Position numbers and translations under genes: made by a program. A stretch of 64,000 nt of DNA from a virus. The stretch's first letter is position 1. The number at the start of each line of letters is the position of its first letter. Under the pieces are notes generated by a model. That model made no database searches, was not told the origin of the DNA, and was given only the letters and a program-made list of their open reading frames with translations. The stretch lies in IMG/VR virus record IMGVR_UViG_3300037339_000380, positions 2,844 through 66,843 of that record. The stretch is one strand, 5' to 3'. Positions 1-64,000 of the stretch are shown here, in pieces.

Positions 1-2
1 CC

Positions 3-86
3 ATCAAATCACACGTTAAGTTCCGCGTCAGTAAGGACGCTAAATTCCTTGGTAAGCTCAAAGTAACCGAGGATGGGATCGAGTAA
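3..86 (+). CDS. 3' end of an upstream ORF, truncated by the window edge (...IKSHVKFRVSKDAKFLGKLKVTEDGIE*)
   Basis: Open frame from the window start to TAA at 84-86, overlapping the folE start as other genes in this operon do. Confidence 0.5.
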   Translation: MKSHVKFRVSKDAKFLGKLKVTEDGIE

Positions 87-624
87 GGATTTAATAACTC
101 AGATCCTATATGACTTAGGAGAGGCTCCTACCCGAGAGGGTTTGAAAGGAACTCCCTGCCGTGTCGTTAAATCATGGAGTGAAATATATGCCGGGTACAC
201 AATGGATGTACCTGGCATGTTCACTACATTTGTTGATACAAACGGTTACAGCCAAGTAGTGATATGTAAAAACATTGAACTATTTTCAATGTGTGAGCAT
301 CATATGTTACCCTTCTTTGGTAAAGTACACGTAGCTTATCTGCCGGACAAAAGAGTTATTGGTTTATCCAAACTTGCACGTTTGGTAGAAGCGTTTTCAA
401 GAAGGTTACAAATACAAGAAAGGATTGGTGAACAAGTTACTGATGCTCTTATGGATTATCTACAACCAAAGGGTGCTGCCTGTATCATTAAAGCTACTCA
501 TATGTGCATGCGTATGAGAGGAGTCAATAAACAAAAGTCAACTATGATTACGTCATCCCTAAAAGGTACGTTCTTAGAAGATGAGATAGTGAGAATGGAA
601 CTTCTTCAACTTCTAAAAATATGA
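73..624 (+). CDS. folE: GTP cyclohydrolase I
   Basis: REGL..TP.RV, FSMCEHHMLPFFG, GLSKLARLVE.FSRRLQIQER and H.CM.MRGV motifs. Confidence 0.97.
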   Translation: MGSSKDLITQILYDLGEAPTREGLKGTPCRVVKSWSEIYAGYTMDVPGMFTTFVDTNGYSQVVICKNIELFSMCEHHMLPFFGKVHVAYLPDKRVIGLSKLARLVEAFSRRLQIQERIGEQVTDALMDYLQPKGAACIIKATHMCMRMRGVNKQKSTMITSSLKGTFLEDEIVRMELLQLLKI

Positions 625-1643
625 TAAACTCACTTACTTATTTGACAAGAAGGTGTCCAAGGAACTGCGAATACTGTTCCTTACGTAATGCCGTAGGAGT
701 AGGAGAAGAATTGACTTGGAAGGAATGGAGAGAAGCGTTTAGGATCTTGCATGAACTGGGTGTAGGCTTTAATCTCATCTTAGGTAATGAAACCTGGATA
801 TTGGGGGGAGCCCTTATAGATATAATGAAAGAAAATAAAGTTCCCTATGCTCTCTATACCACCTGTCCAGAACCCTTGTTTAGTATTCACAGAAGATCTT
901 TCTTTGATTCAGGTATAGATAATTTGTCCTGCGGAGTGGATTACCCACCTCTTCCAGAGGCAGTACAGGATGATTCATATGAAAAGTCAATGTCTGCTTT
1001 GAAAGGACTTGCCTGGGTAAAAAGGGAATACCCACACGTTGACACACAAGGTACGATAACTGTTCATAAAAAGAACATTAAATACCTACCTGAACTCGTA
1101 CACAAGTTATCAGTGATGGGTGTCTTTGTTGGGATTAACTTCATACATTGGAACGTGGACGGTGGGTATGATTTCTTCCCAAAACCTGAGGAAATTCATG
1201 ATTTACTATTTACCGGAAGGGATGAACACCAAGTAAGGTATTATCTAAATGAAGTAATGGATGATGAAGAACACTTGGTACAAAATCCAGAGTTTCTCAG
1301 TCAAGATGTAAAAATGTTAATCAATATGGGTTGGCATTGCAAAGGTAATCCCTATGGTGGACCTACTGTTGATTCCGATGGTCATCTGCGTTGTTGTGGT
1401 TACAGAAGAGGCAGGTATTCTCCAAAAATTACAATATTTGATTTAGCCAATAAAGATTGTAATTGTGATTGGAAAGAGGCAGTGTATCAGGATGCAATGG
1501 AATGTCCTGGTTGTGCTTGGTCATATCCCTGGATGTATCATTTTTGGGAAGAGACCAATCCTAGCATGGGTGAAAAAGTATTTGTTAAGCATGCTGGAGA
1601 ACATATTCCGAAAGATAAATGGAGTAAAAGAAAAATTGAATGA
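621..1643 (+). CDS. Radical SAM enzyme with C-terminal SPASM/twitch-like Cys cluster
   Basis: CPRNCEYC (CxxxCxxC), LGNE, and C-terminal C..G...PTVDSDGHLRCC...CPGC. Confidence 0.85.
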   Translation: MINSLTYLTRRCPRNCEYCSLRNAVGVGEELTWKEWREAFRILHELGVGFNLILGNETWILGGALIDIMKENKVPYALYTTCPEPLFSIHRRSFFDSGIDNLSCGVDYPPLPEAVQDDSYEKSMSALKGLAWVKREYPHVDTQGTITVHKKNIKYLPELVHKLSVMGVFVGINFIHWNVDGGYDFFPKPEEIHDLLFTGRDEHQVRYYLNEVMDDEEHLVQNPEFLSQDVKMLINMGWHCKGNPYGGPTVDSDGHLRCCGYRRGRYSPKITIFDLANKDCNCDWKEAVYQDAMECPGCAWSYPWMYHFWEETNPSMGEKVFVKHAGEHIPKDKWSKRKIE

Positions 1644-2314
1644 AAAGTTTTAATGAAGAAACAATCAAATTATTCAACAAAACCATCTTAGAAGATGAGT
1701 TTAATGATAAGTATCAAAACGATGACATCTATGATGGATTCGTTAGTGGTGGAAAGGAAATGATACGTTTGCTAAACACCGATGATCTCATGAGAGAATT
1801 GGATTCAGATGACATACCAAGACATGTATTGAACGTTGGTGCAGGTCAAGCAGATCTACGAGTTATTTTTCCTCCTAACACTAAAATCTTTGACTTAGAA
1901 CCCTGCCCACAACGTAAAACAGTTGATACTATTGAAGGCTGGAGTGAAAACATTGAAGGTAATTCTTTTGATGTTGTTGTTTGTTGGGGAGTGCTTTGCT
2001 TTGTAAGAAGTTTACCAGAAACATTGATTGAATTTAATCATATACTCTATAAAGGAGGTAATTTGATTACTGATGTTGTGGAATATTCCACGATGCCTCT
2101 GCCTCAAACGGTAAACCCAGACAACTTTGTTCGATGGATCAACTTGTTTGGATTTGAGTTAGAGGAAAGAATTAAATTTGGGAATCCTTATCATAAAAGA
2201 GTTGGTTACAGGTTTACCAAATTTGAAGAATTTAATCACAAAAGATTCCTTATGCCACAGTGCGAAGGAAAAATCAATAACTTTTTACCAGAGAGGGACT
2301 GGTTCTTAAAATAA
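1640..2314 (+). CDS. Class I SAM-dependent methyltransferase
   Basis: VLNVGAG motif I and FDVVVCWGVLCFV...L.EFNHILYKGG. Confidence 0.85.
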   Translation: MKSFNEETIKLFNKTILEDEFNDKYQNDDIYDGFVSGGKEMIRLLNTDDLMRELDSDDIPRHVLNVGAGQADLRVIFPPNTKIFDLEPCPQRKTVDTIEGWSENIEGNSFDVVVCWGVLCFVRSLPETLIEFNHILYKGGNLITDVVEYSTMPLPQTVNPDNFVRWINLFGFELEERIKFGNPYHKRVGYRFTKFEEFNHKRFLMPQCEGKINNFLPERDWFLK

Positions 2315-2315
2315 T

Positions 2316-2861
2316 ATGGGAAAACATTACGATTTGATTCTCCTTTTTAGTGGAGGGTTTGACAGTACTCTGTTACTGAAAATAGCATTGAGACATGGAC
2401 TGGTTCCATATTGCGTTATGTTTGACTATGGTCAGAAACACGTAGTAGAATTGGAATATGCAAAAAAGATCTGTAAGGATAATGATGTTGACTGGGTTGT
2501 GGTTTACTTAGCAGTACCATTTCAATCTAACCTAATGGATGTCAAGAAAACTTATGAAGGAGTTAATGTACATCACGTACCTTCTAGAAATCTTATGTTT
2601 GTATCAATTGCGGCAGGCATAGCAGAGAGTATGGAAGTACCTCTTATATGGTATGGTGCTAATTATGAGGACAGAGAGAAACTGTTCCCTGACTGTTACC
2701 AAGAATGGGTGTACAAAGTTAATGAACTATTGTCTATCAATGGTAGTATGATTGTAAAAGTTGAGGCTCCTTTGCTTGGGATGTCCAAAGAACTGATTAA
2801 AATTCAAGCAGAAGTATTAGGTATTAAAAATGAACAAATATTTACTGGTTATGGAGAGTGA
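2316..2861 (+). CDS. queC: 7-cyano-7-deazaguanine synthase QueC-like, lacking the C-terminal Zn site
   Basis: SGGFDS PP-loop, FDYGQKH..EL, VPSRNLMF, FPDC and APLL.MSK motifs. Confidence 0.88.
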   Translation: MGKHYDLILLFSGGFDSTLLLKIALRHGLVPYCVMFDYGQKHVVELEYAKKICKDNDVDWVVVYLAVPFQSNLMDVKKTYEGVNVHHVPSRNLMFVSIAAGIAESMEVPLIWYGANYEDREKLFPDCYQEWVYKVNELLSINGSMIVKVEAPLLGMSKELIKIQAEVLGIKNEQIFTGYGE

Positions 2862-3228
2862 TAAAGTTTTTACGAAATTAGTGGACAAGCATTATAGTCC
2901 ACTTCTGATCAGGAAGTACACTCATTGGGGCTTCCCGATCTACGTTGGTTTGATTACCGATGATAACTTGGAAAACCTTGACACATTTATTCAAGGCTTT
3001 ATGAAAGATTATGCTAAGGATGGTTGGGTAAATAACCTTCAAACCCTTCGTAATTTAGCAGGAAGATTAACTGAAGAACTAAATGATTACTATCCCAAAG
3101 CAGAAGGTGTAGCAGTTGTTTTCTACGTTGACAAATGTTTCATCTCCTCTTTACATGGGGACTTTATGAATCATGCTTCATGTCGTATTGAATTCTATGG
3201 ACTGTTACAAATGTCTACAGGTGTATGA
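2830..3228 (+). CDS. Hypothetical protein, possibly a degenerate QueD-like T-fold
   Basis: Coupled within the cluster; TLRNLAGRLTEELNDYYP..VAVV weakly resembles the QueD C-terminal helix and strand. Confidence 0.5.
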   Translation: MNKYLLVMESDKVFTKLVDKHYSPLLIRKYTHWGFPIYVGLITDDNLENLDTFIQGFMKDYAKDGWVNNLQTLRNLAGRLTEELNDYYPKAEGVAVVFYVDKCFISSLHGDFMNHASCRIEFYGLLQMSTGV

Positions 3229-3695
3229 AATATGTAATCATAGCACCACACGCCGATGATGAGATTATCGGTTGTTATGAATTGTTAGCTACAGGTTTGG
3301 TAAGAACTGTTCTTTTCCCTGACGAATCAACATTAAAAGAAGCAGAGAAATCAAGTGAGCATTTTTCATTCGGTAAAGGTCTTATTGAAGATGAGGACTA
3401 TTACCGATCACTTGATATAACATACCTGTTTCCAGACCCATACTTTGAGGCACACCCAAAACACAGGGAAATAGGTTCACTTGGGGAGAGCCTTCTAAGG
3501 CAGCACAGGCAAGTTGTTTTTTATAGTACTACTATGTCCGCTCCTTATATTCATGAGGTGACACAGCCCGCAATCAAACGTCAATGCCTAAACAAGTTGT
3601 ATCCTACTAAAAAGGACCTGTGGGCATACGAACATAAATTTTTCCTTTTTGAAGGATATAATAAATGGATATTGAAATGGGACGACTTATTTTAG
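3225..3695 (+). CDS. PIG-L/LmbE family deacetylase
   Basis: IIAPHADDEIIGC and HPKH metal-binding motifs. Confidence 0.85.
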   Translation: MKYVIIAPHADDEIIGCYELLATGLVRTVLFPDESTLKEAEKSSEHFSFGKGLIEDEDYYRSLDITYLFPDPYFEAHPKHREIGSLGESLLRQHRQVVFYSTTMSAPYIHEVTQPAIKRQCLNKLYPTKKDLWAYEHKFFLFEGYNKWILKWDDLF

Positions 3696-4615
3696 TGCCA
3701 CAGTACCCCACCAGATTGAGATATCAGGAATGGTGGTTTTCAGAATTCCCTAACAATTTTATCAATTACTTTGACGAAGTGATTAGTTTAGGAACATATT
3801 CTAAAAGTGGGTACCTTACAACAATGGATAGTAGTAAATTTGCACCTATAAACGAAGCCTTAGAATTTGAACTATATCAAATAAGTTCTTTGAGTACTTT
3901 CAATTTTAAAGATGATGATGTTCTTTTACTCAATGATTTAAGTTATCCTGGGTTGTTCACACAAGCACTGTTTCATAACAGACCAAAGAAATGTTTTGCC
4001 ATCTGTCATGCTACAAGTAGAAACGCATATGATTATTTTGCCAAAGACAGGCAATTAAAATATCCTATTGAAAAAACTACTGCTAAATTGTTCAAACATA
4101 TCTTTGTAGGATCAAACTATCATGCTAACAAGTTAGGATGGAAAAATATTATTGTTACAGGACTCCCAAAACCTCCGTTTTCCTCCAGCGTGCATAAACA
4201 AGAAAAGAGATTCCCAATCATAAGTGTAGCAAGAGATACAATGCAGAAAAGAACGAAAGAAATAGAGGAGGAGGTAAAACGAGCATTTCATTGTAAAATA
4301 TTCAATCCTAAACCTACTGACTGGGCTTCCTATTATGATGCCCTGTCATACTCTAAAGTATTATTGATTACTGCAAAGGAGGAAACATACGGTTATCAAA
4401 TTGTTGACGCTATAATGAATGACTGTATCCCTGTTGCCCCAAATCATTTTAGTTATCCCGAGTTGATTCCCAAAAATTATTTGTATAATAGTATAAACGA
4501 ATTAATTGCCATTTTGATTAAGGCTCTTGGTGGGGAATTACCAGTACCACAATTACTGACAGAAAAACGTTCTCTAACATTCTATGAAGATTTAGCAAAG
4601 TATATGCAACAATGA
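3665..4615 (+). CDS. GT-B (GT4-like) glycosyltransferase
   Basis: C-terminal SKVLLITAKEETYGYQIVDAIMNDCIPVAPNHFSYPELI matches the E-x7-E/D donor-binding region. Confidence 0.85.
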   Translation: MDIEMGRLILVPQYPTRLRYQEWWFSEFPNNFINYFDEVISLGTYSKSGYLTTMDSSKFAPINEALEFELYQISSLSTFNFKDDDVLLLNDLSYPGLFTQALFHNRPKKCFAICHATSRNAYDYFAKDRQLKYPIEKTTAKLFKHIFVGSNYHANKLGWKNIIVTGLPKPPFSSSVHKQEKRFPIISVARDTMQKRTKEIEEEVKRAFHCKIFNPKPTDWASYYDALSYSKVLLITAKEETYGYQIVDAIMNDCIPVAPNHFSYPELIPKNYLYNSINELIAILIKALGGELPVPQLLTEKRSLTFYEDLAKYMQQ

Positions 4616-5709
4616 AAAAACCAACTGTAATCTTAGACTCTGGTGCCTACACAGCATTCAGAAAAGGAAAAACTATTGACATAGATGAATATGCCGAATT
4701 CATAAAAAAGCATGGTCATCTATTTGCAGGTTGTTTCAATTTGGATTCTATTGGCTCAGGTATGAAAGAAAGTAGGGATAAGTCCAAAGATAAGGATGTA
4801 GTTACTACTGCAAAACAAAGTTTTCTTAATTGGATGTACCTCCGAAAGCAAGGGATTGACACAATTCCTATCTATCATATGGGAACAAACCAAGTGTGGT
4901 TACGCAAATATCTTGAACGGACTGACTATGTAGGTATAGGGGCAATAGCAAACCTAAACACCTCACAACGTTTGATGGGACTGTCTGCTCTATGGAAAAA
5001 ATACTTTGTTGACAAAAATGGAAACCCGATAGTAAAAGTTCATGGATTAGGATTAACGGCAATACCAATGATGGTACGCTATCCCTGGTACTCCGTTGAC
5101 AGTTTTACTCCTGTAATATCAGCCGTGTGGGGAAGCATCCTTTTACCTAAATTGAACAGTGAAGGAATCCCTTCCTACTTCAATATGTCCATTAATAAGG
5201 TATCAGACCAGGGGGATCATAAGGATAATATGGAAAACAGTTATCTAAATGTTCCTGTACGAAATAAAAAGTTCTATGAAAAAATGTTTACTGAACATGG
5301 GTTTGAACTTGGTCAGATAACAGGTCAGGAAAAGCATGATAGAAGAGGTAAGAAAGGAGAACAAGCAAGGAAACCTCCAAAACTTCCTGGATTTAATTTA
5401 GTAAATCCTTCCGATCCAAACATAAAAACATTGGCAAACAGTTGGGAAATAAGGATGAAATGGAATCTTATCATGTGGAATCATTTGAAAGAAAGGATGC
5501 CTATTTATCCAAGACCGTTTGTTGATGAGGATGATTACTGGAAAGAAGAAATAACTGGCAAAATAAACTGGTGGATGAATATGGGAGTGTCAACAATAAC
5601 GCACTTGGACATATTCAAATCTGTAAAACCTGCTCATGATATATTAATCAGCTATGCATACATGACAGATGGTATTTATAACAAAATATTTAAAGAGTAT
5701 ATGAAATGA
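4612..5709 (+). CDS. dpdA: Phage DpdA / tRNA-guanine transglycosylase-like DNA deazaguanine insertase
   Basis: ILDSGAY, NLD.IG, IPIYH.G, YVGIG, VHGLG and PWYSVDS motifs; co-located with folE and queC. Confidence 0.8.
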   Translation: MKKPTVILDSGAYTAFRKGKTIDIDEYAEFIKKHGHLFAGCFNLDSIGSGMKESRDKSKDKDVVTTAKQSFLNWMYLRKQGIDTIPIYHMGTNQVWLRKYLERTDYVGIGAIANLNTSQRLMGLSALWKKYFVDKNGNPIVKVHGLGLTAIPMMVRYPWYSVDSFTPVISAVWGSILLPKLNSEGIPSYFNMSINKVSDQGDHKDNMENSYLNVPVRNKKFYEKMFTEHGFELGQITGQEKHDRRGKKGEQARKPPKLPGFNLVNPSDPNIKTLANSWEIRMKWNLIMWNHLKERMPIYPRPFVDEDDYWKEEITGKINWWMNMGVSTITHLDIFKSVKPAHDILISYAYMTDGIYNKIFKEYMK

Positions 5710-40343: not shown

Positions 40344-41167
40344 TATTTCTTAAAATTTTTTTGTTCCTTCAACTGCTGTACGATATTAGGAGGTGTGTCA
40401 AATGTAGTATATATTGAATTTAAAGTTCTATCTACCTTATCTGGTACTGTTATATCTTCAACTATGACGTTATTAGGATTACCATACACATTAAGAATAG
40501 CCCTAACTAATTGAGCCTTCGTTACTACCTCCCCAAAATAATGACGTACTCCCCCCCAAAATGTATTATTTACAATCACATGCTCCATTTCCTTGGCTAA
40601 CTGTAGACAAGTAACTCCATTCCAATAATGATTGTTGTATCCATTAATATTCTCCTTTTGATCAAGAACCCATTCTATCAAAGATTTTTTGAAAGAACCC
40701 CCACCAATTACTGAAGTCCTAATTACAGAACATGAAGAAGGTTCCCCAGCAACTTTTGATATTCCATAAATATCCTCTGGATCAGGAATATCCTCTTCTG
40801 TGTAATTTCCTTTCTTACCTGAAAAACAACAATCTGTACTTACATGAATGAAATTCAAATAATGATATCTACAATAATCATTTAAAACATGAGGAAATAC
40901 AGAATTGATTTTTATTGCTTTAATAGAATCATTATCCGTAATTTTCTGTTTGATAAGACCTATACAATTAATTACAGTATCTCCTATATAAGCTCCCCCT
41001 TTAAGACTAAAGCAAGTTTCCAACTTGGTAAGATCAACATCCTCAGCCTCTATCCCTTTCATTTTATTGCTATGATTAATTTCATGAACTTTATACCCCT
41101 TCGTTTTAAAGTAAGAAGCCACATAACCACCCAACATTCCTGTACTGCCTAATATAAATATTTTCAT
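40343..41167 (-). CDS. rmlD: dTDP-4-dehydrorhamnose reductase-like SDR
   Basis: ILGSTGMLG, INCIG and HVSTDCCFSG.KG.Y.E.D.P.P...YG.SK. Confidence 0.88.
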   Translation of the reverse strand: MKIFILGSTGMLGGYVASYFKTKGYKVHEINHSNKMKGIEAEDVDLTKLETCFSLKGGAYIGDTVINCIGLIKQKITDNDSIKAIKINSVFPHVLNDYCRYHYLNFIHVSTDCCFSGKKGNYTEEDIPDPEDIYGISKVAGEPSSCSVIRTSVIGGGSFKKSLIEWVLDQKENINGYNNHYWNGVTCLQLAKEMEHVIVNNTFWGGVRHYFGEVVTKAQLVRAILNVYGNPNNVIVEDITVPDKVDRTLNSIYTTFDTPPNIVQQLKEQKNFKK

Positions 41168-49949: not shown

Positions 49950-50909
49950 TTATTTATAATACTTGACTATATCTTCAATATAAGGTAATGCAATACAACG
50001 ACAATACGGATGATAAGGTATTAAAGGTTCTATTTCATCCAATGTAAATATTTTACCTTCCAAAGATGCACACTTCTCACACACCCTATCATCCCCAGCC
50101 GTTACCCATTCTGCCTTAACGTACACATCTTCCAATCCCCAATTACGATATTCTTGTATTGAAGCTAAATGGAAAGCTCTTATGATTTCTGTACGAGCTA
50201 ACATCATAGCTCTACGTTCAGCAGGAATAAAACGACCTAATGTATCAGTAAGACTTAATTTCCCCAGGTCTGTTCCATCAATTGAAGCTATCAATTTACG
50301 AGCCAATAACGTTGGATTGTCTCCATCAATCATACCCTGTGCAAGTATCCTGCTAATCATAGAATCCATTGCATTAGTGATTCCATTTAAGTCTGAAAAC
50401 ACTCTGGTATAGAGTAAACCAACACGATCAATATGAAATGGAGTACCATTAAGTATTGCATCAATACCCCCGGCTTCTTCTAATGATGAAATAGGAAACC
50501 CTGCTTTCTTCAATTCAGCACGGGCACGTATGATTCCCCGCTTGTACGAATCCAATATATAAAGATTTGTCCAAGCCTGTTCCATTGACATACCTAACTG
50601 CTGAAACGTTCCCACCGATAACACACCCTTATCAACTTGTTGACGTAACCAACGCATAAAAGCATCTACCTTATCAGGATCCCGTAAATAATTGAACGCT
50701 CCTGAACCCGGTGGGGTCATTTGATTAATAATTATTTTATACTTATCCAACCCAAAACAATCCTGTTCAAGTAAAGCTTCACGAATCACACGTTTCAATT
50801 CTACAACACGTACTTTCATAGCTTTAGCAAATGAATTACGTAATGCCGTAGTATGAGTAGGGTCGTAATTATGACGTTGAATTTCAGTATATGTAACTAC
50901 CTCTTCCAT
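49950..50909 (-). CDS. Head morphogenesis protein (Mu gpF / SPP1 gp7 family)
   Basis: RA..LARTEI.RA, W.TAGDDRVC..C..LEG and P.HP.CRC. Confidence 0.9.
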   Translation of the reverse strand: MEEVVTYTEIQRHNYDPTHTTALRNSFAKAMKVRVVELKRVIREALLEQDCFGLDKYKIIINQMTPPGSGAFNYLRDPDKVDAFMRWLRQQVDKGVLSVGTFQQLGMSMEQAWTNLYILDSYKRGIIRARAELKKAGFPISSLEEAGGIDAILNGTPFHIDRVGLLYTRVFSDLNGITNAMDSMISRILAQGMIDGDNPTLLARKLIASIDGTDLGKLSLTDTLGRFIPAERRAMMLARTEIIRAFHLASIQEYRNWGLEDVYVKAEWVTAGDDRVCEKCASLEGKIFTLDEIEPLIPYHPYCRCIALPYIEDIVKYYK

Positions 50910-58599: not shown

Positions 58600-60348
58600 T
58601 TACACGTCTGTTGTTCTGATTGCTGAAATACTCTGATTGGATCCAATAAATGTCCAAGCTGAAATAAACTGTTTAATAGGTGTTCCTCCACCATCCCTTA
58701 CAATTACAACAAGATTTCTTGGACTTGAATAAGTTCCCTGATATGACATTGATGTCCCAGTAGCCTCAGCATCAAGGTAAGCAATATAAACATCATTTCC
58801 TATCTGGGCTTCAACAGTATTAAAGTCCTCATTTCCATCAGTGGTATCAATGGTAAATGTTGATGTTGCCCAAGATGAATAATGTAGCCTTCTTTCAAAT
58901 CCGTTATCGTCCACAACCCTTATATATCCAGATGAAGGAGTGTCTGCCGGAATTGCTTCTATTACAACTACCGAAGTAATATCATCAGCATCAAGGGCAG
59001 TTGCCAAAGATAATTGATCTTTTTGTATTGCTTGATCTCCATTACCATCATAGGTTACACCATCCCAAGGTGCTACAAGAACCCTATCATGCCCACTAAC
59101 TAAACCAGTTACAGAGTTAGTAACCAAGTTAGGAGGTGACCACTGATCATTTGCAAGGTCAAACAGTTTATCATTAGAATCCAAATCAGCTGGTTGTATT
59201 CCTACACCATAAGCACCAATTATAGATGAACCTGTTGAAGCTCCAATAAACGGTTTACTTATTGTAGCTGACCTGTCTGTTACTGTACCAGCAGTAGCCG
59301 AAGCAGCATCAGGAACAGTTTGTGTTAATGCAACCCCTGACTCAGGAGCTTCACCTGTCAATATCTGAATCCAAAGTTTATTAGTACCATTATTAGCCAG
59401 TATCTGACCAGTACCTGCCTTTGTTCCTGTCCAGCTAACAGGATTACTATCATCAAATGTACCTGTTAAACCTGAATAAGCAATCTCATGAGTGATACCT
59501 CTGAAAAGTTCTCCTGCAAGACCAAAAAGAGTGGTAGCCATACCATCCCTGGTAAGCCATTTCATTCTTTCATAAAAGTCATTGGTTGTTCTTGTTGGAT
59601 AATCAGCATTCCATTCTGAATAGAAATATTCATCGTCACCATCATCATCTATATCCAAGCCAATGTATCCTTCGGTAACCAACGTTATACCTGTCCATCC
59701 TGCTACCGTAGCAAGTAATGTCTGGTTATTTAAATCCGCTGCATCAGCCAAAGCCAATACGTTATTACCACGTGAAGTACCGTTAATAGAAAACTCCTGA
59801 TAAGTATAATTAAAACGTCTTGCTATACCAATAAGCCTTCTACCATCAATATCTCCACCATCAACTACAAAATCATGTACCTTTAACATGAATCTATGTG
59901 ATATCCCTGCTGCTGCAGAAGCATTCAATCCAGCACCATCATAATTCCACCAGTCATCTGCTATTACGGCACCATCTTGAATTATTTGGATTTGAACATC
60001 AGCATTACCAAAGTTTACAATACCGTCCCAAATGATCTGATCAACACCAACAGTTCCCTGAATTATAGAACCATCGTACAAATGCTCTGGTGCTGCAGCA
60101 TTCAACGTATAACCATTTATCAAGGTTATAATGTTATCTGTTGATCTACGGGATGGGTCAACATTGGTAATGTCCAGTTCATCACTGGATGCAGGAATTG
60201 CTACTGCATCATCCGCAAGTGATTGTAACCATCTATGAAACTGTATTACAGTTGCATAAGAAGGTGCACTTTCACCATGATCATCTCCTGTATACGAAAT
60301 TACTTTCGTACTCCTATCAATTGTCCAGTCTGTTGCTACTATTGCCAT
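58600..60348 (-). CDS. Putative virion structural protein
   Basis: 582 aa, acidic, G/T/D-rich beta composition; late-gene strand. Confidence 0.6.
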   Translation of the reverse strand: MAIVATDWTIDRSTKVISYTGDDHGESAPSYATVIQFHRWLQSLADDAVAIPASSDELDITNVDPSRRSTDNIITLINGYTLNAAAPEHLYDGSIIQGTVGVDQIIWDGIVNFGNADVQIQIIQDGAVIADDWWNYDGAGLNASAAAGISHRFMLKVHDFVVDGGDIDGRRLIGIARRFNYTYQEFSINGTSRGNNVLALADAADLNNQTLLATVAGWTGITLVTEGYIGLDIDDDGDDEYFYSEWNADYPTRTTNDFYERMKWLTRDGMATTLFGLAGELFRGITHEIAYSGLTGTFDDSNPVSWTGTKAGTGQILANNGTNKLWIQILTGEAPESGVALTQTVPDAASATAGTVTDRSATISKPFIGASTGSSIIGAYGVGIQPADLDSNDKLFDLANDQWSPPNLVTNSVTGLVSGHDRVLVAPWDGVTYDGNGDQAIQKDQLSLATALDADDITSVVVIEAIPADTPSSGYIRVVDDNGFERRLHYSSWATSTFTIDTTDGNEDFNTVEAQIGNDVYIAYLDAEATGTSMSYQGTYSSPRNLVVIVRDGGGTPIKQFISAWTFIGSNQSISAIRTTDV

Positions 60349-60380
60349 ACTATCAGTTTTTAGTTATTATACCTTATATA

Positions 60381-60656
60381 TTATACATTAAACACTTCAT
60401 CCGGTACACTGGCTAAAGCTATTGCAGTAGCTTCAGCAATGACTTGTTTAAAGAACCCACAAATCACTGCTTTCTGTGGGTCAGTAGCAGTTGCAAGTAT
60501 AGTCATTACATTTACTGCAACTCCTTTCATATCCATGCCACTGGAGTCATATACCTCCATATTGACATACGCCATTTTGTCTTTCAAGCTAAACGTAATA
60601 TTTTCAACTCTGTGTAATACTCCAGTCTGTGCCGGAATGTCTTTCGTGATATCCAT
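60381..60656 (-). CDS. Hypothetical protein
   Basis: ORF within the late operon. Confidence 0.55.
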   Translation of the reverse strand: MDITKDIPAQTGVLHRVENITFSLKDKMAYVNMEVYDSSGMDMKGVAVNVMTILATATDPQKAVICGFFKQVIAEATAIALASVPDEVFNV

Positions 60657-60667
60657 TTTTTTAAGTT

Positions 60668-60916
60668 TTAACGGTTATAAAATACAGTATTCTTTTCATG
60701 CGTTTTGTACAAAACTGGTAAAGTGGCTATTCCATTTACTATGGTAAACGAAATTAAGTCATGCTTATGAATATTCCAAACAGTTAGCTTAATACCTAAA
60801 GCAACGGGTTCCCTGTAAAACGGATACTCAATGTCAGTCTCCAGATCACGTACCACTCCTTCATTGGGAGTTGTAGCCCATCCATTGTTCATCTTTACCA
60901 CTACACCGTATGACAT
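60668..60916 (-). CDS. Small protein, possibly a cold-shock-like OB fold
   Basis: GVVVK.N......EG.V.D......Y.F...D.ISF.I..G.A. Confidence 0.45.
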   Translation of the reverse strand: MSYGVVVKMNNGWATTPNEGVVRDLETDIEYPFYREPVALGIKLTVWNIHKHDLISFTIVNGIATLPVLYKTHEKNTVFYNR

Positions 60917-62448
60917 TACGTGATCCTCCTCGCAATTTTCTTACCTGCTAATTTACTAAATGCACCAGCTGCAGAGTCAACCTGGTCTTTATAAGTGCTA
61001 AATGGAAAAAACCGATGTTCTTCAATAAACTCTCGGTTCCATAATCCATTCATAAGTATAAAATTATCATTGTTTACCTGTACAGAATACGGGTCAGCCC
61101 TGAATATCTTATCTCCCGTGGGACGCTCTGCGTAAACGGAGAAGCCAGCCAGGTTCAGAATTGAAGCCTGGGCTGACTCTTTCCCTCCTGAGCCGGGTTC
61201 CTGCTCTAACCAAATCCTTACTCTTGGACCATCCGCCTCAGCAGTTGATCTGATTATATTTTCTCGTTCATCTGTACTCCACCTGCCTCGCTTGACATCT
61301 TCAACAAGAAACTTCCCACTGGTTAATATACTCATGCGAGTACCTACCGTAAAAGGAGCTCCCCCCGCCTGAGTACCTGCCTTGTCCCAATATCTTACAG
61401 TCATTACTATTTCCGAACCCTTGGGCATCACATTGATCATTTGGAAGTGATCTACTCTGAACATACCTCCTCCAGGAGGAGTTGGATTCTGTCCCACCTG
61501 CCCTGCATATCCATACTGACCTAAGTCAGCCTCCATATCCTTCAATACCTTCCAAGGTATACGAACTGGGTCAAGTAAATCATCTATATACTTTGTAACC
61601 AATTCTGGAGGTTTGAGGTACTGTTTAAAATTACGTATTTCACCTGGGAAAGCAATGTGCCTGATGTTCTCTTTCTGTTTAGAAAGGATATGACCTGAAG
61701 GGTCATCCTGGTGGAGCCGTTGCATGATCACAATGGTTGGTGTGACAGCTTTGTCAGTTTTACGGGTGCTAAGGGTCTGTTCCATCCAGCGGTTTGCGTT
61801 GGCAATTTCTACCTCCGATACGGCTTGGGTTGGATTAAGAGGATCATCTACGATCAGTATATCACCGTGAAATCCGATCAGCGTGCCACCTACGGATGTC
61901 GTGTAACGACTTCCACCAGTCTCTGACCTTTGTTGCTTGTAGGGAATACCCCCTAACTTTTTTATAATGCTAAAATTTGATTTGGTATCTTTGTCCTCTC
62001 GGATACCCAGGTCTGGGTAAATCTCTTGAAACTGATCACTGCGGAGTATGTTCCTACAGTGATCGGCTATTTCTAATGACAACTGTGATGAGTAAGAAGC
62101 ACAGATAAACTTCATCTTGTACCACTTGGTCCAGCACCATGCTGGGAACATGACTGAGCACGTCATCGTCTTCGTAGTCCCAGGGGGTACATTTATAATA
62201 AGGTCATATTCACGTGGTTCTTTTCTGGCTACCCTCTCCGCTACACGCTCCAACTCCTTGCATAAATACTCAATGTGCCAATTCCCTTTGAACGGCTGAG
62301 TATTGACTACATCCCAGAAATACTGAATGAAGTGATACAGCGACATATTATTCAAAGCCCTGATTGTAGCAACAGGATTCTCCAACGCCTTTTGATATAA
62401 CTGCATTTTATCCTGAACCTCCTTCTTGGCAGGTTTCGTGCGTCGCAT
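60916..62448 (-). CDS. terL: Terminase large subunit
   Basis: LIINVPPGTTKT, G.HGD.LIVDDP, IMQRLH.DD, YWDKAG, EQEPGSGGK and DQVDS; likely start is ATG 62448, 1 nt after the terS stop. Confidence 0.95.
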   Translation of the reverse strand: MRRTKPAKKEVQDKMQLYQKALENPVATIRALNNMSLYHFIQYFWDVVNTQPFKGNWHIEYLCKELERVAERVARKEPREYDLIINVPPGTTKTMTCSVMFPAWCWTKWYKMKFICASYSSQLSLEIADHCRNILRSDQFQEIYPDLGIREDKDTKSNFSIIKKLGGIPYKQQRSETGGSRYTTSVGGTLIGFHGDILIVDDPLNPTQAVSEVEIANANRWMEQTLSTRKTDKAVTPTIVIMQRLHQDDPSGHILSKQKENIRHIAFPGEIRNFKQYLKPPELVTKYIDDLLDPVRIPWKVLKDMEADLGQYGYAGQVGQNPTPPGGGMFRVDHFQMINVMPKGSEIVMTVRYWDKAGTQAGGAPFTVGTRMSILTSGKFLVEDVKRGRWSTDERENIIRSTAEADGPRVRIWLEQEPGSGGKESAQASILNLAGFSVYAERPTGDKIFRADPYSVQVNNDNFILMNGLWNREFIEEHRFFPFSTYKDQVDSAAGAFSKLAGKKIARRIT

Positions 62449-62449
62449 T

Positions 62450-62962
62450 TCACTCACTTCCAGTCCCATCATCTATCTTATTGTTCTGGTTTAGTTGCTG
62501 TATCTTCCTGATCATCTCCAATTCCGATTGATTAAGTCCATTCAATGCTTCCAAGTTGACATTGAGTATATTCATCGTGTTCTGGGTGACTCCCTTAGGA
62601 TTTGGAATATCTGACCATCTTCCCTTCTGCCGTGAGCTGAGCCAAAACTTCTGAGCCGCGACGTCACCCGGTATATGCTTACGTACTGGAATTACTATCG
62701 TTTCCCCCTTTGACGTAATCACCTGATCTTCAATGTACGTGTATCCAGTTGCACGTTTATGTAATGAATGAACTACTTCAGCGTCAGCAGGTGTTTTCCC
62801 TCTCTTGATCGCTTTGCGGAATCTGGCTTTAGTCCTCTTCCATTTTTCAAACGTTGGAACACTAACTCCCATGATGTCTGCCATCTCCGCGTCCATGAGT
62901 CCCAGCAACGCCAATTTGTATGCTTGCCTTGGACGATCTTCATTCCACAATACTACTGCCAT
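62450..62962 (-). CDS. terS: Terminase small subunit
   Basis: HTH (LG..D.EMA...GVS..T...WK), V..SL.KRA.GY and DV.AQ.FWL..R...W; likely start is ATG 62962. Confidence 0.9.
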   Translation of the reverse strand: MAVVLWNEDRPRQAYKLALLGLMDAEMADIMGVSVPTFEKWKRTKARFRKAIKRGKTPADAEVVHSLHKRATGYTYIEDQVITSKGETIVIPVRKHIPGDVAAQKFWLSSRQKGRWSDIPNPKGVTQNTMNILNVNLEALNGLNQSELEMIRKIQQLNQNNKIDDGTGSE

Positions 62963-63673
62963 CTGATTTTGACTTTTGTTCCCTTTACAGTTCCTTTCTA
63001 CGTTGTAAAACTGTAAAGTTATGATAATCCATTGATCTGGCAATGTGGAGTATCCATATTTTTTTTGAGAAGATCCTAATCCCAGGGTATGATTACATTA
63101 TCCTTCCAAAAATATTTTTAAAATTTTTCTAGGCCTGAATTTCGGATACCTATTTATATATAGGGCTGGCACCCGGGGGCCGAATTCGCTTCAATGTAAG
63201 TGTGCGCGGGTGTGCCCATCAACTGGAATAGTAATATGCCCATCAATGCCTAAAAAGTTCCAAAATTTTCTAGCACTGATGGACGGGACAGTCAGCCACT
63301 ACGCCCCTTTCATCGCGCCAACCGACCGCGCCCCCCACTAAATTTTAGTAACAATTTAACTAAATATAATTAACTTACTATTTAGTTATACATATATATT
63401 TAGTAAGTAATATGCGCCCGTTTAAACGTTGTTATTTTATAGTAGTGTTATTGTGTTATTGTAATACAGTTAATTATTTGTATTGCCCTATGCTGCCTAA
63501 TACATATATATTTTAAACGTTGTTATGTTATAAAGTAATAACACTAATTATATTTTTAACTACCCACAACTGCCCACAATTGCCCCTATATTAATTTAAC
63601 AGTATAACATATATATTAACTCATATTGTTACACTATTATTAACTAATCATTTAGTTATACATAACCACAAAT

Positions 63674-63704
63674 AAAAAACACGTGTTAAACTTAACACGT
63701 GTTT
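63674..63704 (-). terminator. Long perfect hairpin with a U-tract on the - strand
   Basis: AAACACGTGTTAA/TTAACACGTGTTT (63677-63689 and 63692-63704), downstream of a small - strand ORF. Confidence 0.6.
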
Positions 63705-63725
63705 ATAAACGTTGTAACAGTTTTG

Positions 63726-63827
63726 TTAAAGTACTATGATTATACAAACAATAATTAACACTAATAAAATATATCCGATTATTGCAAGTATTTTTAAAAC
63801 TCTCTCACTATCTATATTTGTTTTCAT
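63726..63827 (-). CDS. 33-aa single-TM peptide (not in the track)
   Basis: MKTNIDSERVLKILAIIGYILLVLIIVCIIIVL*. Confidence 0.45.
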   Translation of the reverse strand: MKTNIDSERVLKILAIIGYILLVLIIVCIIIVL

Positions 63828-63842
63828 GTTTCTGTTTTTTTA

Positions 63843-63882
63843 AACAGTAACAGTAAACGTGTTTATGTTTACTGTTACTGTT
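63843..63882. repeat. 16-bp inverted repeat built from CAGTAA/TTACTG units
   Basis: AACAGTAACAGTAAAC (63843-63858) pairs with GTTTACTGTTACTGTT (63867-63882). Confidence 0.75.
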
Positions 63883-64000
63883 ACTGTTTAGTTACTTTGT
63901 TACTGTTTCTGTTACTTTGTCTTGTTTCTGTTTCTTTACTACTATCATCATGCTTTTTTCATTTAGCGTTAAATTGTGTGCTGTTAGATACAGTTTTTGT

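What the first reader, a model, noticed from the sequence alone, without database searches (positions are those of the whole stretch)
63326..63737. A ~295-bp stretch with no GA/TC dinucleotide: possible modification-free zone revealing the DpdA target
Seen: from 63326 to 63620 I find no GA and no TC, so no GA on either strand, and only two TC up to 63737. My hand count is about 29 G and 48 C in the 295 bp, so roughly 25-30 would be expected from base composition. GA/TC is abundant elsewhere in the window. The zone also holds repeats (TTTAAACGTTGTTAT at 63421 and about 63512; TGCCC several times). Established: nanopore mapping in the dPreQ0 phage CAjan placed the modification in GA and GGC contexts. 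Inference: this phage modifies G in GA, and selection keeps this control region (promoters, origin, or packaging/first-injected end) free of modified bases so that proteins can read it. GCC is present, so only GA is avoided.
Basis: partly seen in the sequence, partly recalled or inferred. Interest (0 to 1): 0.85.

Follow-up and report, generated by a model that had tools for sequence, protein, structure and literature searches.

The report
GA-free DNA zone upstream of terminase
A 300-base non-coding stretch beside this phage's DNA-packaging genes lacks the two-letter word GA on both strands; related guanine-modifying phages show similar gaps in the same place, so it may be DNA the phage keeps free of its own chemical modification.

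Summary
Window 63325-63620 holds no GA and no TC, against about 29 expected. It is the only such gap in the 66.8-kb genome.

It lies upstream of terS, between a terminator and a GC-rich element. None of the nine other non-coding stretches is depleted.

Relatives carry voids at the same place, but the missing word differs:
- GA/TC in L001, L021 and G005 (about 2.5 kb in G005).
- AC/GT plus GC in G001 and G003.
- Everything except GA in L029 and L035.

In some relatives real genes inside the zone are recoded to obey the rule. In one relative pair, 52 substitutions created no GA/TC (P about 1e-8).

Strong zones occur in 6 of 10 complete DpdA-bearing relatives and 0 of 6 lacking DpdA.

Phage iggy, whose DpdA is published as strictly GA-specific, has a GA/TC-depleted non-coding zone (19 observed, 94 expected) with GGC not depleted.

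A zone kept free of the phage's own DpdA target is the best explanation (about 0.45). However, this phage's motif is unmeasured, CAjan lacks a void, and several DpdA-bearing relatives lack a zone. The opposite reading, that every G in the zone is modifiable, is not excluded. I found no description in print.

The parts
63325..63620 (.). Core zone: 296 bp with no GA and no TC on either strand. It is AT-rich (26% G+C) and every G is followed by T, C or G. It has a loosely modular repeat structure: ACATATATATT at 63390, 63502 and 63607; TTTAAACGTTGTTAT... at 63421 and 63512; AACTGCCCAC tandem at 63558-63585.
63621..63737 (.). Extension of the zone: only two TC (63621, 63648) in 117 bp. It contains the terminator hairpin.
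63677..63704 (-). Terminator-like hairpin (AAACACGTGTTAA / TTAACACGTGTTT) followed by a T-run on the minus strand. It ends the upstream minus-strand genes. A weak Pistol-ribozyme hit here (21.1 bits against a gathering score of 34.5) is taken as chance.
   Evidence: (I13)
63296..63336 (.). GC-rich boundary element with a C6 run (G6 on the terS strand). The zone begins inside it. G-run elements sit at the same boundary in G001, G003 and L029, and G8 runs lie inside the iggy zone.
   Evidence: read from sequence
63044..63324 (.). Proximal terS-upstream region with normal GA/TC (28 observed, 34.5 expected). Direct repeats: TGCCCATCAA x2 (63213, 63237) and AAATTTTTCTAGGCCTGA-like x2 (63121, 63262). 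TTTTGGAA-type words are shared with L001 and G003.
62983..63018 (-). Inverted repeat CTTTACAGTT...AACTGTAAAG in the terS leader. It is conserved in L001.
   Evidence: read from sequence
62450..62962 (-). terS, the terminase small subunit (170 aa from the ATG at 62962). Hits phrog_309 at E 5e-35 and is 61% identical to the L001 homologue.
60916..62472 (-). terL, the terminase large subunit (518 aa). Used to fetch the relatives.
63726..63827 (-). 33-aa hydrophobic small ORF between the two GA/TC-free stretches. It holds 9 of the 11 GA/TC found in 63325-63908.
63843..63882 (.). Perfect 16-nt inverted repeat (AACAGTAACAGTAAAC / GTTTACTGTTACTGTT) inside a further 77-bp GA/TC-free stretch (63831-63908).
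   Evidence: (I5)
63892..64000 (-). 3' end of a minus-strand ORF that runs off the contig end. It is homologous by eye to L001:102-497 (131 aa, no Pfam family).
4612..5709 (+). DpdA-like guanine transglycosylase (365 aa). Hits phrog_887 at E 2e-38 and is 29-35% identical to DpdA/tgt of Queuovirinae and other phages. It is the enzyme whose target is proposed to be avoided in the zone.
73..624 (+). FolE (GTP cyclohydrolase I), part of the 7-deazaguanine operon. QueD and QueE lie just upstream of the window in the same contig.

Best explanation
The stretch is a cis-acting, mostly non-coding DNA zone at the head of the packaging module. It lies upstream of terS and is bounded by a GC-rich G-run element and a terminator. 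It is under strong selection to exclude the dinucleotide 5'-GA-3' on both strands.

The most likely reason is that GA is the context in which this phage's own DpdA exchanges guanine for a 7-deazaguanine derivative. The zone would then stay unmodified while the rest of the genome, where about one third of all G are in GA, is modified.

What is shown:
- the void, its uniqueness in the genome and its position;
- its recurrence at the same position in relatives;
- its maintenance against substitutions in one relative pair;
- its restriction to DpdA-bearing genomes in this family;
- a GA-depleted zone in iggy, whose DpdA target is published as GA.

What is inferred:
- that this phage's DpdA targets GA;
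- that the zone is unmodified;
- why the zone must stay unmodified. My best guess is that the zone holds the packaging/terminal-repeat or leading-end signals. Terminase, or host proteins that meet the DNA first, may have to read these signals the same way whether or not post-replicative modification has caught up.
For: 1. The void is extreme and specific. There are 0 GA/TC against 29 expected, and the minimum in 20,000 shuffles was 13. The 3' neighbours of the remaining G (T 41, C 18, G 18 over both strands) are in about the proportions base composition gives once A is forbidden. The rule therefore reads 'not GA' rather than 'one favoured word'.

2. It is local. It is the only such gap in the genome, and 9 of 9 other non-coding stretches are normal.

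3. The same place in diverged relatives shows the same gap. L001 (TerL 70% identical) has 2 observed against 30 expected. L021 has 2 against 52, in a zone with 40% G+C. All other dinucleotide classes are near expectation there. G005 has about 2.5 kb without GA/TC or CC/GG.

4. The void is actively maintained in a relative pair. L233 and L234 differ by 52 substitutions in 168 aligned zone columns. About 30% of random substitutions would create GA/TC, yet none did (P = 1.2e-8).

5. In relatives, real genes inside zones obey the rule at the cost of amino-acid composition. The G003 zone ORF has no A or T and only one V. It has positional orthologues inside the G001 and G002 zones and paralogues of normal composition elsewhere. 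The ORFs in the G005 zone lack D, E, G and P.

6. There is a link to DpdA. Among genomes at least 90% complete, a strong void (expected count at least 20, in a class containing G or C, upstream of terS) occurs in 6 of 10 with DpdA and 0 of 6 without. The Fisher one-sided p is 0.026. On the TerL tree, G005 (with a zone) is sister to G010 and G012, which have neither DpdA nor a zone (support 100/98). Among this genome's genes, only FolE, QueD, QueE and DpdA follow the pattern.

7. There is a positive control. Iggy's DpdA is published as strictly GA-specific (PMC10484667, passages). Its record has a 768-bp non-coding zone with 19 GA/TC against 93.8 expected, while GG is 137, GC 118, GT 85 and GGC+GCC 44. 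In 400-bp windows GA/TC reaches log10P -13.8, and the next class reaches only -4.4. In six DpdA-lacking controls GA/TC never falls below -4.8.
Against: 1. No modification data exist for this phage. Its DpdA is only about 30% identical to any other DpdA compared.

2. CAjan is published as modified at GA and GGC, yet has no void. Its longest gap is 81 and its best window is 15 observed against 45 expected, inside a gene.

3. Many DpdA-bearing records lack a strong zone. Four of 10 complete relatives do: G008, G030, G033 and G034. So do three DpdA-bearing fragments: G015, G031 and G040.

4. Relatives with DpdA avoid other words. G001 and G003 avoid AC/GT and GC. G002 avoids GC. G035 avoids CC/GG. 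In L029 and L035 GA is the only context allowed. Under my reading their enzymes would need specificities never reported, namely GY or 'anything but GA'. G008's DpdA is 62-65% identical to those of G001 and G003, yet its weak gap is GA/TC. L097's void is CA/TG, which is not a class defined by the base 3' of G.

5. The palindrome-avoidance test does not favour GA protection here. In this genome GATC+TCGA stand at 0.75 of expectation, like DpdA-lacking relatives (0.64-0.79). GTAC+ACGT stand at 0.92. The CAjan control shows 1.00 against 0.87. Six-letter palindromes give no consistent picture.

6. DpdA-lacking G013 has a 151-nt GA/TC gap (expected count 18) with a similar GTTA-type vocabulary.

7. 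The association test is not corrected for shared descent. GC and CC/GG voids in AT-rich DNA are weaker evidence than GA/TC or AC/GT voids.
Confidence: 0.45

Rival explanations
1. Binding-site array or low-complexity region unrelated to DpdA. The zone would be a fast-evolving array of short protein-binding words set in A/T filler. The words are GTTA/TAAC, GTAA and AGTA here, and GAT/ATC or GGAT in other lineages. The binding protein could be TerS, a replication initiator or a small winged-helix protein. The missing dinucleotide would be a by-product of a small vocabulary spread by slippage and duplication.
For: - The zones are rich in short local repeats and modules.
- The vocabularies differ by lineage.
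- The G001, G002 and G003 zones each hold a small protein with a conserved RLW-SKLG motif and a weak DUF3489 (winged-helix-like) hit. It could be the binder.
- DpdA-lacking G013 has a 151-nt GTTA-type GA/TC-free stretch.
- Several DpdA-bearing relatives have no zone.
Against: - In this zone 8 of the 9 dinucleotide classes other than GA/TC are present at 0.69-1.91 of expectation. Only GA/TC is missing.
- L021 shows the same with a quite different, GC-rich vocabulary. A small-vocabulary by-product should lose several classes at random.
- 52 substitutions without one GA/TC needs selection or a biased mutation process.
- The rule extends over coding genes.
- No helical periodicity was found.
- Strong zones were found only in DpdA-bearing genomes.
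Confidence: 0.22
2. The opposite sign: a fully modifiable zone. The forbidden contexts would be those that DpdA cannot modify, so every G in the zone is replaced. This could protect the first-entering DNA, or make packaging depend on completed modification, as Dam methylation does at the P1 pac site (recalled). Here DpdA would act on G followed by T, C or G.
For: - In L029 and L035 GA is the only context allowed. In G001 and G003 only GA and GG are allowed. These match the published target sets GA (iggy) and GA+GGC (CAjan) as allowed contexts, not forbidden ones.
- Four-letter palindromes: this genome avoids GATC/TCGA (0.75) but not GTAC/ACGT (0.92). G001 and G002 show the reverse (0.84 against 0.59; 0.81 against 0.71).
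Against: - Iggy, the one phage with both a measured strict GA motif and a zone, has the zone depleted of GA, not enriched.
- 'Anything but GA' is an odd positive specificity.
- In this zone the non-GA contexts occur in neutral proportions, which fits a negative rule.
- Six-letter palindromes contradict the four-letter result in G001 and G003.
Confidence: 0.12
3. Avoidance, or a mutational footprint, of a host DNA-acting defence with a two-letter context. Candidates are a TC-specific cytosine deaminase or an ADP-ribosyltransferase acting on exposed single-stranded DNA. The zone would be vulnerable because it is often single-stranded, as at an origin, a leading end or a packaging site.
For: - TC/GA loss on both strands is the classic footprint of TC-specific deaminases (recalled).
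- The lineage-specific contexts (TC; AC and GC; all but TC) resemble the varied -1 base preferences of deaminase families (recalled).
- AT is enriched in the G003-type zones (234 against 142 expected), as a sink product would be.
Against: - In this zone AA/TT, the expected sink, is not enriched (74 against 81).
- It does not explain why strong zones occur only in DpdA-bearing genomes.
- It does not explain why iggy's depleted word equals its own enzyme's target.
- No deaminase or DNA methyltransferase gene was found in this genome with the three Pfam families tried.
Confidence: 0.07

Closest known systems
Sequence-specific 7-deazaguanine modification by phage DpdA (iggy: GA; CAjan: GA and GGC)
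   Same: This phage encodes a DpdA-like enzyme with FolE, QueD, QueE and a QueC-like gene. The missing word is exactly the published iggy target. In iggy the same word is depleted in a non-coding zone, while the non-target GGC is not.
   Different: Neither paper, in the passages I read, reports a motif-poor zone. This phage's DpdA is only about 30% identical to those enzymes and its operon holds extra enzymes. CAjan has no void. Relatives' zones point to other contexts.
Restriction-site and short-motif avoidance in phage genomes
   Same: Selection removes a short word because a DNA-acting enzyme recognises it. It is detected as an observed/expected deficit.
   Different: Classical avoidance is genome-wide, concerns 4-6-bp palindromes and is directed against host enzymes. 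Here the word has two letters, its loss is total, it is confined to 0.3-2.5 kb at one locus, and the suspected enzyme is the phage's own.
Modification-sensitive cis sites: the P1 pac site and oriC GATC clusters (recalled, not tested here)
   Same: A packaging or replication site whose function depends on the modification state of a short word clustered within it. The G003- and L029-type zones are dense in GATC/TGATCA-like words next to terS.
   Different: Those sites concentrate the modified word. This zone excludes a word. No Dam-type or C5 methyltransferase was found in this genome or in G003.
cos/pac sites and terminal-repeat junctions next to terminase genes (lambda cosQ-cosN-cosB; T7-type direct terminal repeats) (recalled)
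   Same: The position is directly upstream of terS. There is a GC-rich element in an AT-rich genome, flanked by repeat-rich non-coding DNA. Iggy has a 1091-bp direct terminal repeat (PMC10484667, passage), and its GA-poor stretch is about 1.1 kb at the end of the record.
   Different: No termini are known for this phage. The only run holding it is kept as contigs and gave no ends. Where iggy's repeat lies in its record is not stated in the text I read.
APOBEC-type TC/GA depletion footprints in animal viruses (recalled)
   Same: The same dinucleotide pair is depleted on both strands.
   Different: Those footprints are genome-wide or gene-class-wide and partial. This one is total, local and tied to a phage-encoded guanine-modifying system.

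Membership tests
DpdA (phage DNA guanine transglycosylase, TGT superfamily): window 4612-5709 | Sequence similarity to TGT/DpdA proteins | tested here: met
   phrog_887 'queuine tRNA-ribosyltransferase' at E 1.8e-38. tblastn gives 190 phage records at 29-35% identity over about 60% of the length, annotated tgt/DpdA. Pfam TGT was not reached at E 0.001.
DpdA (phage DNA guanine transglycosylase, TGT superfamily): window 4612-5709 | Neighbouring preQ0-pathway genes (FolE, QueD, QueE, QueC) | tested here: met
   FolE hits phrog_2197 at E 1e-66 and a QueC-like gene hits phrog_1550. QueD and QueE were read in the contig start and have homologues in DpdA-bearing relatives.
DpdA (phage DNA guanine transglycosylase, TGT superfamily): window 4612-5709 | Inserts a 7-deazaguanine into DNA at a defined context (GA) | not testable with these tools
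   No modification data exist. The only sequencing run found is kept as assembled contigs.
Zone free of the phage's own modification target (proposed kind; iggy as reference case) | Local, strand-symmetric depletion of one dinucleotide with the other classes normal | tested here: met
   Window: 0 observed against 29 expected. Iggy: 19 against 93.8.
Zone free of the phage's own modification target (proposed kind; iggy as reference case) | The depleted word equals the enzyme's measured target | tested here: inconclusive
   Met for iggy, using the published motif. Unknown for this phage. Not met in CAjan, where no void was found.
Zone free of the phage's own modification target (proposed kind; iggy as reference case) | Absent from relatives without the enzyme | tested here: met
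   0 of 6 complete DpdA-lacking relatives have a strong void upstream of terS, against 6 of 10 with DpdA. Caveats: G013 has a weaker gap, and there is no correction for descent.
cos/pac or terminal-repeat packaging site | Lies next to the terminase genes | tested here: met
   The zone begins 363 bp upstream of the terS start codon.
cos/pac or terminal-repeat packaging site | Mapped genome ends or terminase cleavage at the site | not testable with these tools
   Read laying had contigs only. The contig stops at 63901 and no ends were reported.
Replication origin with iterons | Several regularly spaced copies of one iteron beside an AT-rich unwinding element and an initiator gene | tested here: inconclusive
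   Repeats of 10-30 nt occur at spacings of 91-112, but there is no single iteron family and no periodicity. The primase/helicase-like gene lies at the other contig end.
Rfam RNA families | Match at the gathering score | tested here: not met
   Only a Pistol-ribozyme hit at 21.1 bits, against a gathering score of 34.5, on the terminator hairpin. No tRNA was found.

The most novel reading that the evidence does not exclude
Phages with a sequence-specific DpdA keep a defined stretch beside their terminase genes free of the enzyme's own target. That stretch is probably the terminal repeat, packaging site or leading end.

If so, the missing dinucleotide reads out DpdA specificity from sequence alone. 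It predicts:
- GA for this phage;
- GA plus GG for the G005 lineage;
- a so far unknown G-pyrimidine specificity for the G001/G003 DpdA clade.

It would also mean that 7-deazaguanine in DNA is incompatible with some step of packaging, end processing or first-contact gene expression. The constraint would be strong enough to recode genes into proteins lacking whole classes of amino acids.
Probability: 0.3. Interest if true: 0.85.

Novelty: new variant of a known kind. Interest (0 to 1): 0.72.

Why it matters
If the reading holds, three things follow.

1. The target context of an uncharacterised DNA-hypermodifying enzyme could be predicted from a genome sequence. That could be tested immediately on published iggy nanopore data and on isolates.
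2. It would reveal a cost of guanine hypermodification. Some DNA transaction next to the terminase genes would not tolerate the modified base, which bears on how such phages package, inject or start expression.
3. It would predict new DpdA specificities (G-pyrimidine) in uncultured phages.

Even if the DpdA link fails, one finding still needs an explanation. These are kilobase-scale zones with strictly forbidden dinucleotide steps, conserved in place but not in sequence. They are strong enough to strip D, E, G and P, or A, T and V, from the proteins encoded inside them. I found no description in print. The evidence for that is the listings of searches and the passages read in the iggy, CAjan and Hutinet 2023 papers; supplements were closed.

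Tried and rejected
Chance. Rejected.

An RNA gene. There is no tRNA. The only Rfam hit is a sub-threshold Pistol match on the terminator hairpin.

DNA similarity of 62900-64000 to named phages. None was found.

Helical periodicity of G/C, AA/TT or TA in seven zones. No consistent peak near 10.5.

Long tandem arrays. Only short local repeats were found.

Dam-type, N6/N4 or C5 methyltransferase as the actor. None was found in this genome or in G003. N6/N4 hits occur only in G001 and G002.

Another gene tracking the zones. Among this genome's ORFs only FolE, QueD, QueE and DpdA follow the pattern. Genes absent from this genome were not screened.

Palindrome avoidance as a read-out of which G context is protected. 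The four-letter and six-letter results disagree, and this genome looks like its DpdA-lacking relatives. I treat the test as inconclusive.

Genome ends from reads. One run (X1) holds the stretch, but only as contigs. One contig covers 62000-63901 and stops there. No ends, joints or variants were reported. This says nothing either way.

Sigma-70 promoter scan. 8 sites were found against 6.2 +/- 2.4 in shuffles, which is not informative. Bacteroidota-type promoters are not covered.

Pfam on zone ORFs and on the ORF upstream of the zone. There was only a weak DUF3489 hit on a G003 paralogue.

Earlier notes of this scan. None concerned this feature.

Rows left out of counts:
- Fragments under 90% complete were not used for 'DpdA absent'.
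- G042, a provirus with TerL about 31% identical, was left out of the 0-of-6. Including it gives 0 of 7.
- G011 has QueD/QueE-like hits without FolE/DpdA and may carry another deazaguanine system. Without it the test is 6 of 10 against 0 of 5, p = 0.042.
- L038 was not held and so was not searched.
- For G030-G036 and G040 only the 10-kb flanks of TerL were scanned, not whole genomes.
- Several locus ids are the same contig fetched twice: L002 = L020 = L192 = L230; L015 = L027 = L196; L003 = L025; and others.
Full report
**The observation**

The window is the last 64,000 bases of a single 66,843-bp virus contig. CheckV estimates it at 93% complete. The contig has no terminal overlap and both ends cut genes.

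Between 63324 and 63621 there is no GA and no TC. The expected GA+TC is 29.0. In 20,000 mononucleotide shuffles the mean was 28.97 and the minimum 13.

Genome-wide, GA/TC occurs 7,948 times, with a mean gap of 8.4. The three longest gaps (297, 90, 77) are adjacent at 63324-63908. The longest gap anywhere else is 65.

Only GA/TC is lost. The other classes stand at 0.69-1.91 of expectation. G is followed by T 41, C 18 and G 18 times over both strands. That is about what base composition gives once A is forbidden.

The neighbouring 281 bp towards terS are normal, at 28 observed against 34.5 expected. All nine other non-coding stretches of the window are normal too, at 0.90-1.29.

**Anatomy**

On the minus strand, reading towards terS, the order is as follows:
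- The end of an ORF that runs off the contig (63892-64000).
- A perfect 16-nt inverted repeat (63843-63882).
- A 33-aa hydrophobic ORF (63726-63827).
- A terminator-like hairpin with a T-run (63704-63677).
- The GA/TC-free core (63620-63325), which ends inside a GC-rich element with a G6 run (63336-63296).
- A 280-bp region with direct repeats and normal GA/TC.
- A conserved inverted repeat in the leader (63018-62983).
- terS (62962-62450) and terL (62472-60916).

The core has a loose modular structure. ACATATATATT occurs three times at spacings of 112 and 105. A 21-nt repeat occurs at 63421 and 63512. There is a tandem AACTGCCCAC. No ORF of note, tRNA or Rfam family lies in it.

The phage carries a 7-deazaguanine operon. 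It holds QueD and QueE just before the window, then FolE, a radical-SAM protein, a QueC-like protein and a DpdA-like protein at 4612-5709. I confirmed only FolE, the radical-SAM hit, the QueC-like hit and DpdA.

**Relatives**

TerL searches of IMG/VR and metagenome contigs gave 17, 50, 80, 39 and 80 loci, with overlaps between the sets. TerL identity ranges from 57-72% for the family members down to about 30% in the most distant loci.

At the same place, upstream of terS, the closest relatives repeat the void although the sequence is not alignable. L001 has 2 GA/TC against 30 expected, plus a 471-nt CC/GG gap. L021 has 2 against 52, in a zone with 40% G+C built from quite different words.

Among the 93 rows of the first screen, 10 distinct contigs had a void with an expected count of 20 or more upstream of terS. 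The missing word varies between them:
- GA/TC, with or without CC/GG, in L001, L021, L113 (962 nt) and L119 = G005.
- AC/GT plus GC in G001 and G003.
- GC in G002.
- CA/TG in L097.
- AC/GT, GC and CC/GG together in L029 and L035, so that every G there is followed by A.

G005's void is 2,418 nt to the contig end plus about 200 nt at the contig start, on a contig whose ends overlap.

A further subclade (L229, L231, L233-L235, L246, L247, L256) has 180-220-nt GA/TC gaps at a constant distance from TerL.

In four of the types the contexts split with GA on one side and GT and GC on the other, while GG goes either way. The zones are not long tandem arrays and show no helical periodicity.

**Evidence for constraint rather than drift**

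L233 and L234 differ at 52 of 168 aligned zone columns. About 30% of random substitutions would create GA or TC, yet none did (P = 1.2e-8). For L040 and L041 there were 9 substitutions (P = 0.02).

In G003 a 136-aa ORF inside the zone has no A or T and a single V. Positional orthologues lie inside the zones of G001 and G002, and paralogues of ordinary composition lie elsewhere. In G005 the zone holds several ORFs beginning MQNT or MQT that lack D, E, G and P. One of them has a paralogue outside the zone. In L029 a 206-aa ORF lies in DNA where G occurs only as GA.

The rule therefore acts on DNA and overrides protein composition.

**Link to DpdA**

I searched records for DpdA with the window's protein or with a five-sequence profile.
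- 3 of 4 records matched.
- 2 of 5 matched.
- 1 of 20 matched, and 0 of 5 among records at least 90% complete.
- 7 of 14 matched, and 4 of 6 among records at least 90% complete.

Taking genomes at least 90% complete:
- With DpdA (ten): G000, G001, G002, G003, G005, G008, G030, G033, G034, G035. Six have a void with an expected count of at least 20 upstream of terS: G000 (35), G001 (31), G002 (20), G003 (40), G005 (272) and G035 (24, CC/GG).
- Without DpdA (six): G010-G014 and G032. None has one; the maximum is 18.

The Fisher one-sided p is 0.026.

Whole-genome scans of G010-G014 found no G-context void above an expected count of 18 anywhere. On a TerL tree, genomes with and without DpdA interleave. 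G005 is sister to G010 and G012 with support 100/98.

Of this genome's ORFs, only FolE, QueD, QueE and DpdA are shared with the zone-bearing genomes and missing from most DpdA-lacking ones. G011 has QueD/QueE-like hits.

Caveats:
- Descent is not corrected for.
- Four complete DpdA-bearing genomes and three DpdA-bearing fragments lack a strong zone.
- G013 (no DpdA) has a 151-nt GA/TC gap elsewhere with a similar vocabulary.

**Controls with measured motifs**

CAjan is reported as modified at GA and GGC, with GT, GC and GGT sites cut (PMC7544227, abstract and passages). It has no void. Its longest GA/TC gap is 81, and its best 400-bp window has 15 observed against 45 expected.

Iggy is reported as strictly GA-specific, with about 97% of sites modified and direct terminal repeats of 1091 bp (PMC10484667, passages). 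It does have a zone. The non-coding 59,981-60,628 plus 1-120 holds 19 GA/TC against 93.8 expected. There GG is 137, GC 118, GT 85 and GGC+GCC 44. It contains two G8 runs.

In 400-bp windows GA/TC reaches log10P -13.8 in iggy, against -4.4 for the next class. This genome reaches -13.7 and G005 reaches -20.0. AC/GT reaches -16.7, -12.8 and -12.0 in G003, G001 and G002.

In six DpdA-lacking controls (five relatives and lambda) GA/TC never goes below -4.8 and AC/GT never below -7.3. Other DpdA phages are weaker: pVco-14 at -6.9 near the record end, M39 at -6.3, PaMx25 at -4.6, and Baskent_P4_1 and VPv64 near -2.5.

The low-GA stretch in iggy is about 1.1 kb long, close to the repeat length. The record holds no terminal duplicate, and the text I read does not say where the repeat lies.

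**Which way round?**

For this phage the neutral proportions of the allowed contexts also fit a negative rule.

Against it stand zones in which GA, or GA and GG, are the only contexts allowed (L029, L035, G001, G003). Under the same logic these need DpdAs aimed at G-pyrimidine or at 'all but GA'. The DpdAs of G001, G002, G003 and G008 are 57-69% identical to each other and only about 30% identical to this one. A different specificity is therefore possible but unknown.

A palindrome-avoidance test gave mixed answers:
- This genome has GATC+TCGA at 0.75 and GTAC+ACGT at 0.92, like DpdA-lacking relatives (0.64-0.79 and 0.82-0.94).
- G001 has 0.84 against 0.59.
- CAjan has 1.00 against 0.87.
- Six-letter palindromes disagree with the four-letter ones.

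I treat this test as unresolved.

**What the zone does**

Its place points to a packaging site, terminal repeat or leading end, or to an origin or early control region. It lies directly upstream of terS. In G003 and most relatives that is the divergent gap between the early and late arms. It is bounded by a G-run element and rich in repeats, and in iggy the equivalent zone lies at the end of a record with mapped terminal repeats.

No ends could be mapped. The one run holding the sequence is kept as contigs.

My best account, at about 0.45, is a zone kept free of DpdA's target so that a DNA transaction there is independent of modification state.

Rivals:
- A protein-binding word array unrelated to DpdA (0.22).
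- A fully modifiable zone (0.12).
- Avoidance of a host enzyme with a two-letter context (0.07).

**Novelty**

Searches of the paper library did not turn up a description of motif-free or motif-poor zones in deazaguanine phages. This rests on the listings, and on term look-ups inside the iggy, CAjan and Hutinet 2023 papers. Supplements were closed and may hold per-site data. Earlier notes of this scan hold nothing on it.

I rate it a new variant of a known kind: motif avoidance, but local, total, two-letter and apparently aimed at the phage's own enzyme. I score interest at 0.72.

Noticed in passing
L119 1-2450 (= G005 71592-74009 and 1-203): About 2.5 kb without GA/TC or CC/GG. It holds several minus-strand ORFs of 53-160 aa that begin MQNT or MQT and lack D, E, G and P entirely. 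One has a paralogue outside the zone.
   Followed up: partly
L016 7790-8200 (-), with paralogues at L016 4739-5035 (-) and G003 40399-40551: A small protein family with a conserved R-x-x-RLW-x-SKLG motif and a weak DUF3489 hit. One copy sits inside the dinucleotide-restricted zone in each of G001, G002 and G003, recoded to lack A and T with a single V. It could be the zone's binding protein.
   Followed up: partly
L072 (G002 about 3536-5400): The G002 DpdA homologue is a 629-aa ORF. The two halves of DpdA are separated by an insert of about 300 aa, which looks intein- or homing-endonuclease-like by eye.
   Followed up: no
G011 (contig of L126): This complete relative has QueD- and QueE-like hits (56% and 50% identity) but no FolE or DpdA hit. 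It may carry a different deazaguanine system.
   Followed up: no
L097 / L237, about 1.1-1.5 kb upstream of terS: A 349-nt void of CA/TG (expected count 38) at the same locus. This class is not defined by the base 3' of G and fits none of the models.
   Followed up: no
window 621-4615: Between FolE and DpdA lie six ORFs. They include a radical-SAM protein and a QueC-like protein. None has a counterpart in the 11 relatives compared, except a 26% hit of 3665-4615 in G005.
   Followed up: partly
window 62983-63018: An inverted repeat CTTTACAGTT / AACTGTAAAG just before the terS start. It is conserved in L001 despite the divergence around it. It may be a leader RNA structure or an operator.
   Followed up: no
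contig bases 2200-2840, just before the window; window 1-86: A gene for a highly acidic, Glu/Lys-rich repeat protein. It produces the genome's longest AT, CA/TG and TA gaps. This is a reminder that low-complexity coding also makes dinucleotide voids.
   Followed up: no
all family genomes: CTAG is almost absent in most family members: 0-4 copies against 90-102 expected in G001-G003, and 22 against 100 in this genome. GGCC is also strongly avoided.
   Followed up: no
CAjan (KP064094) 50026-50330: A non-coding stretch near the primase gene, built from TAGGGTA/TACCCTA words. GA/TC is at about 0.3 of expectation (10 observed, 32 expected). It may be a weak counterpart of the zone or an origin.
   Followed up: partly
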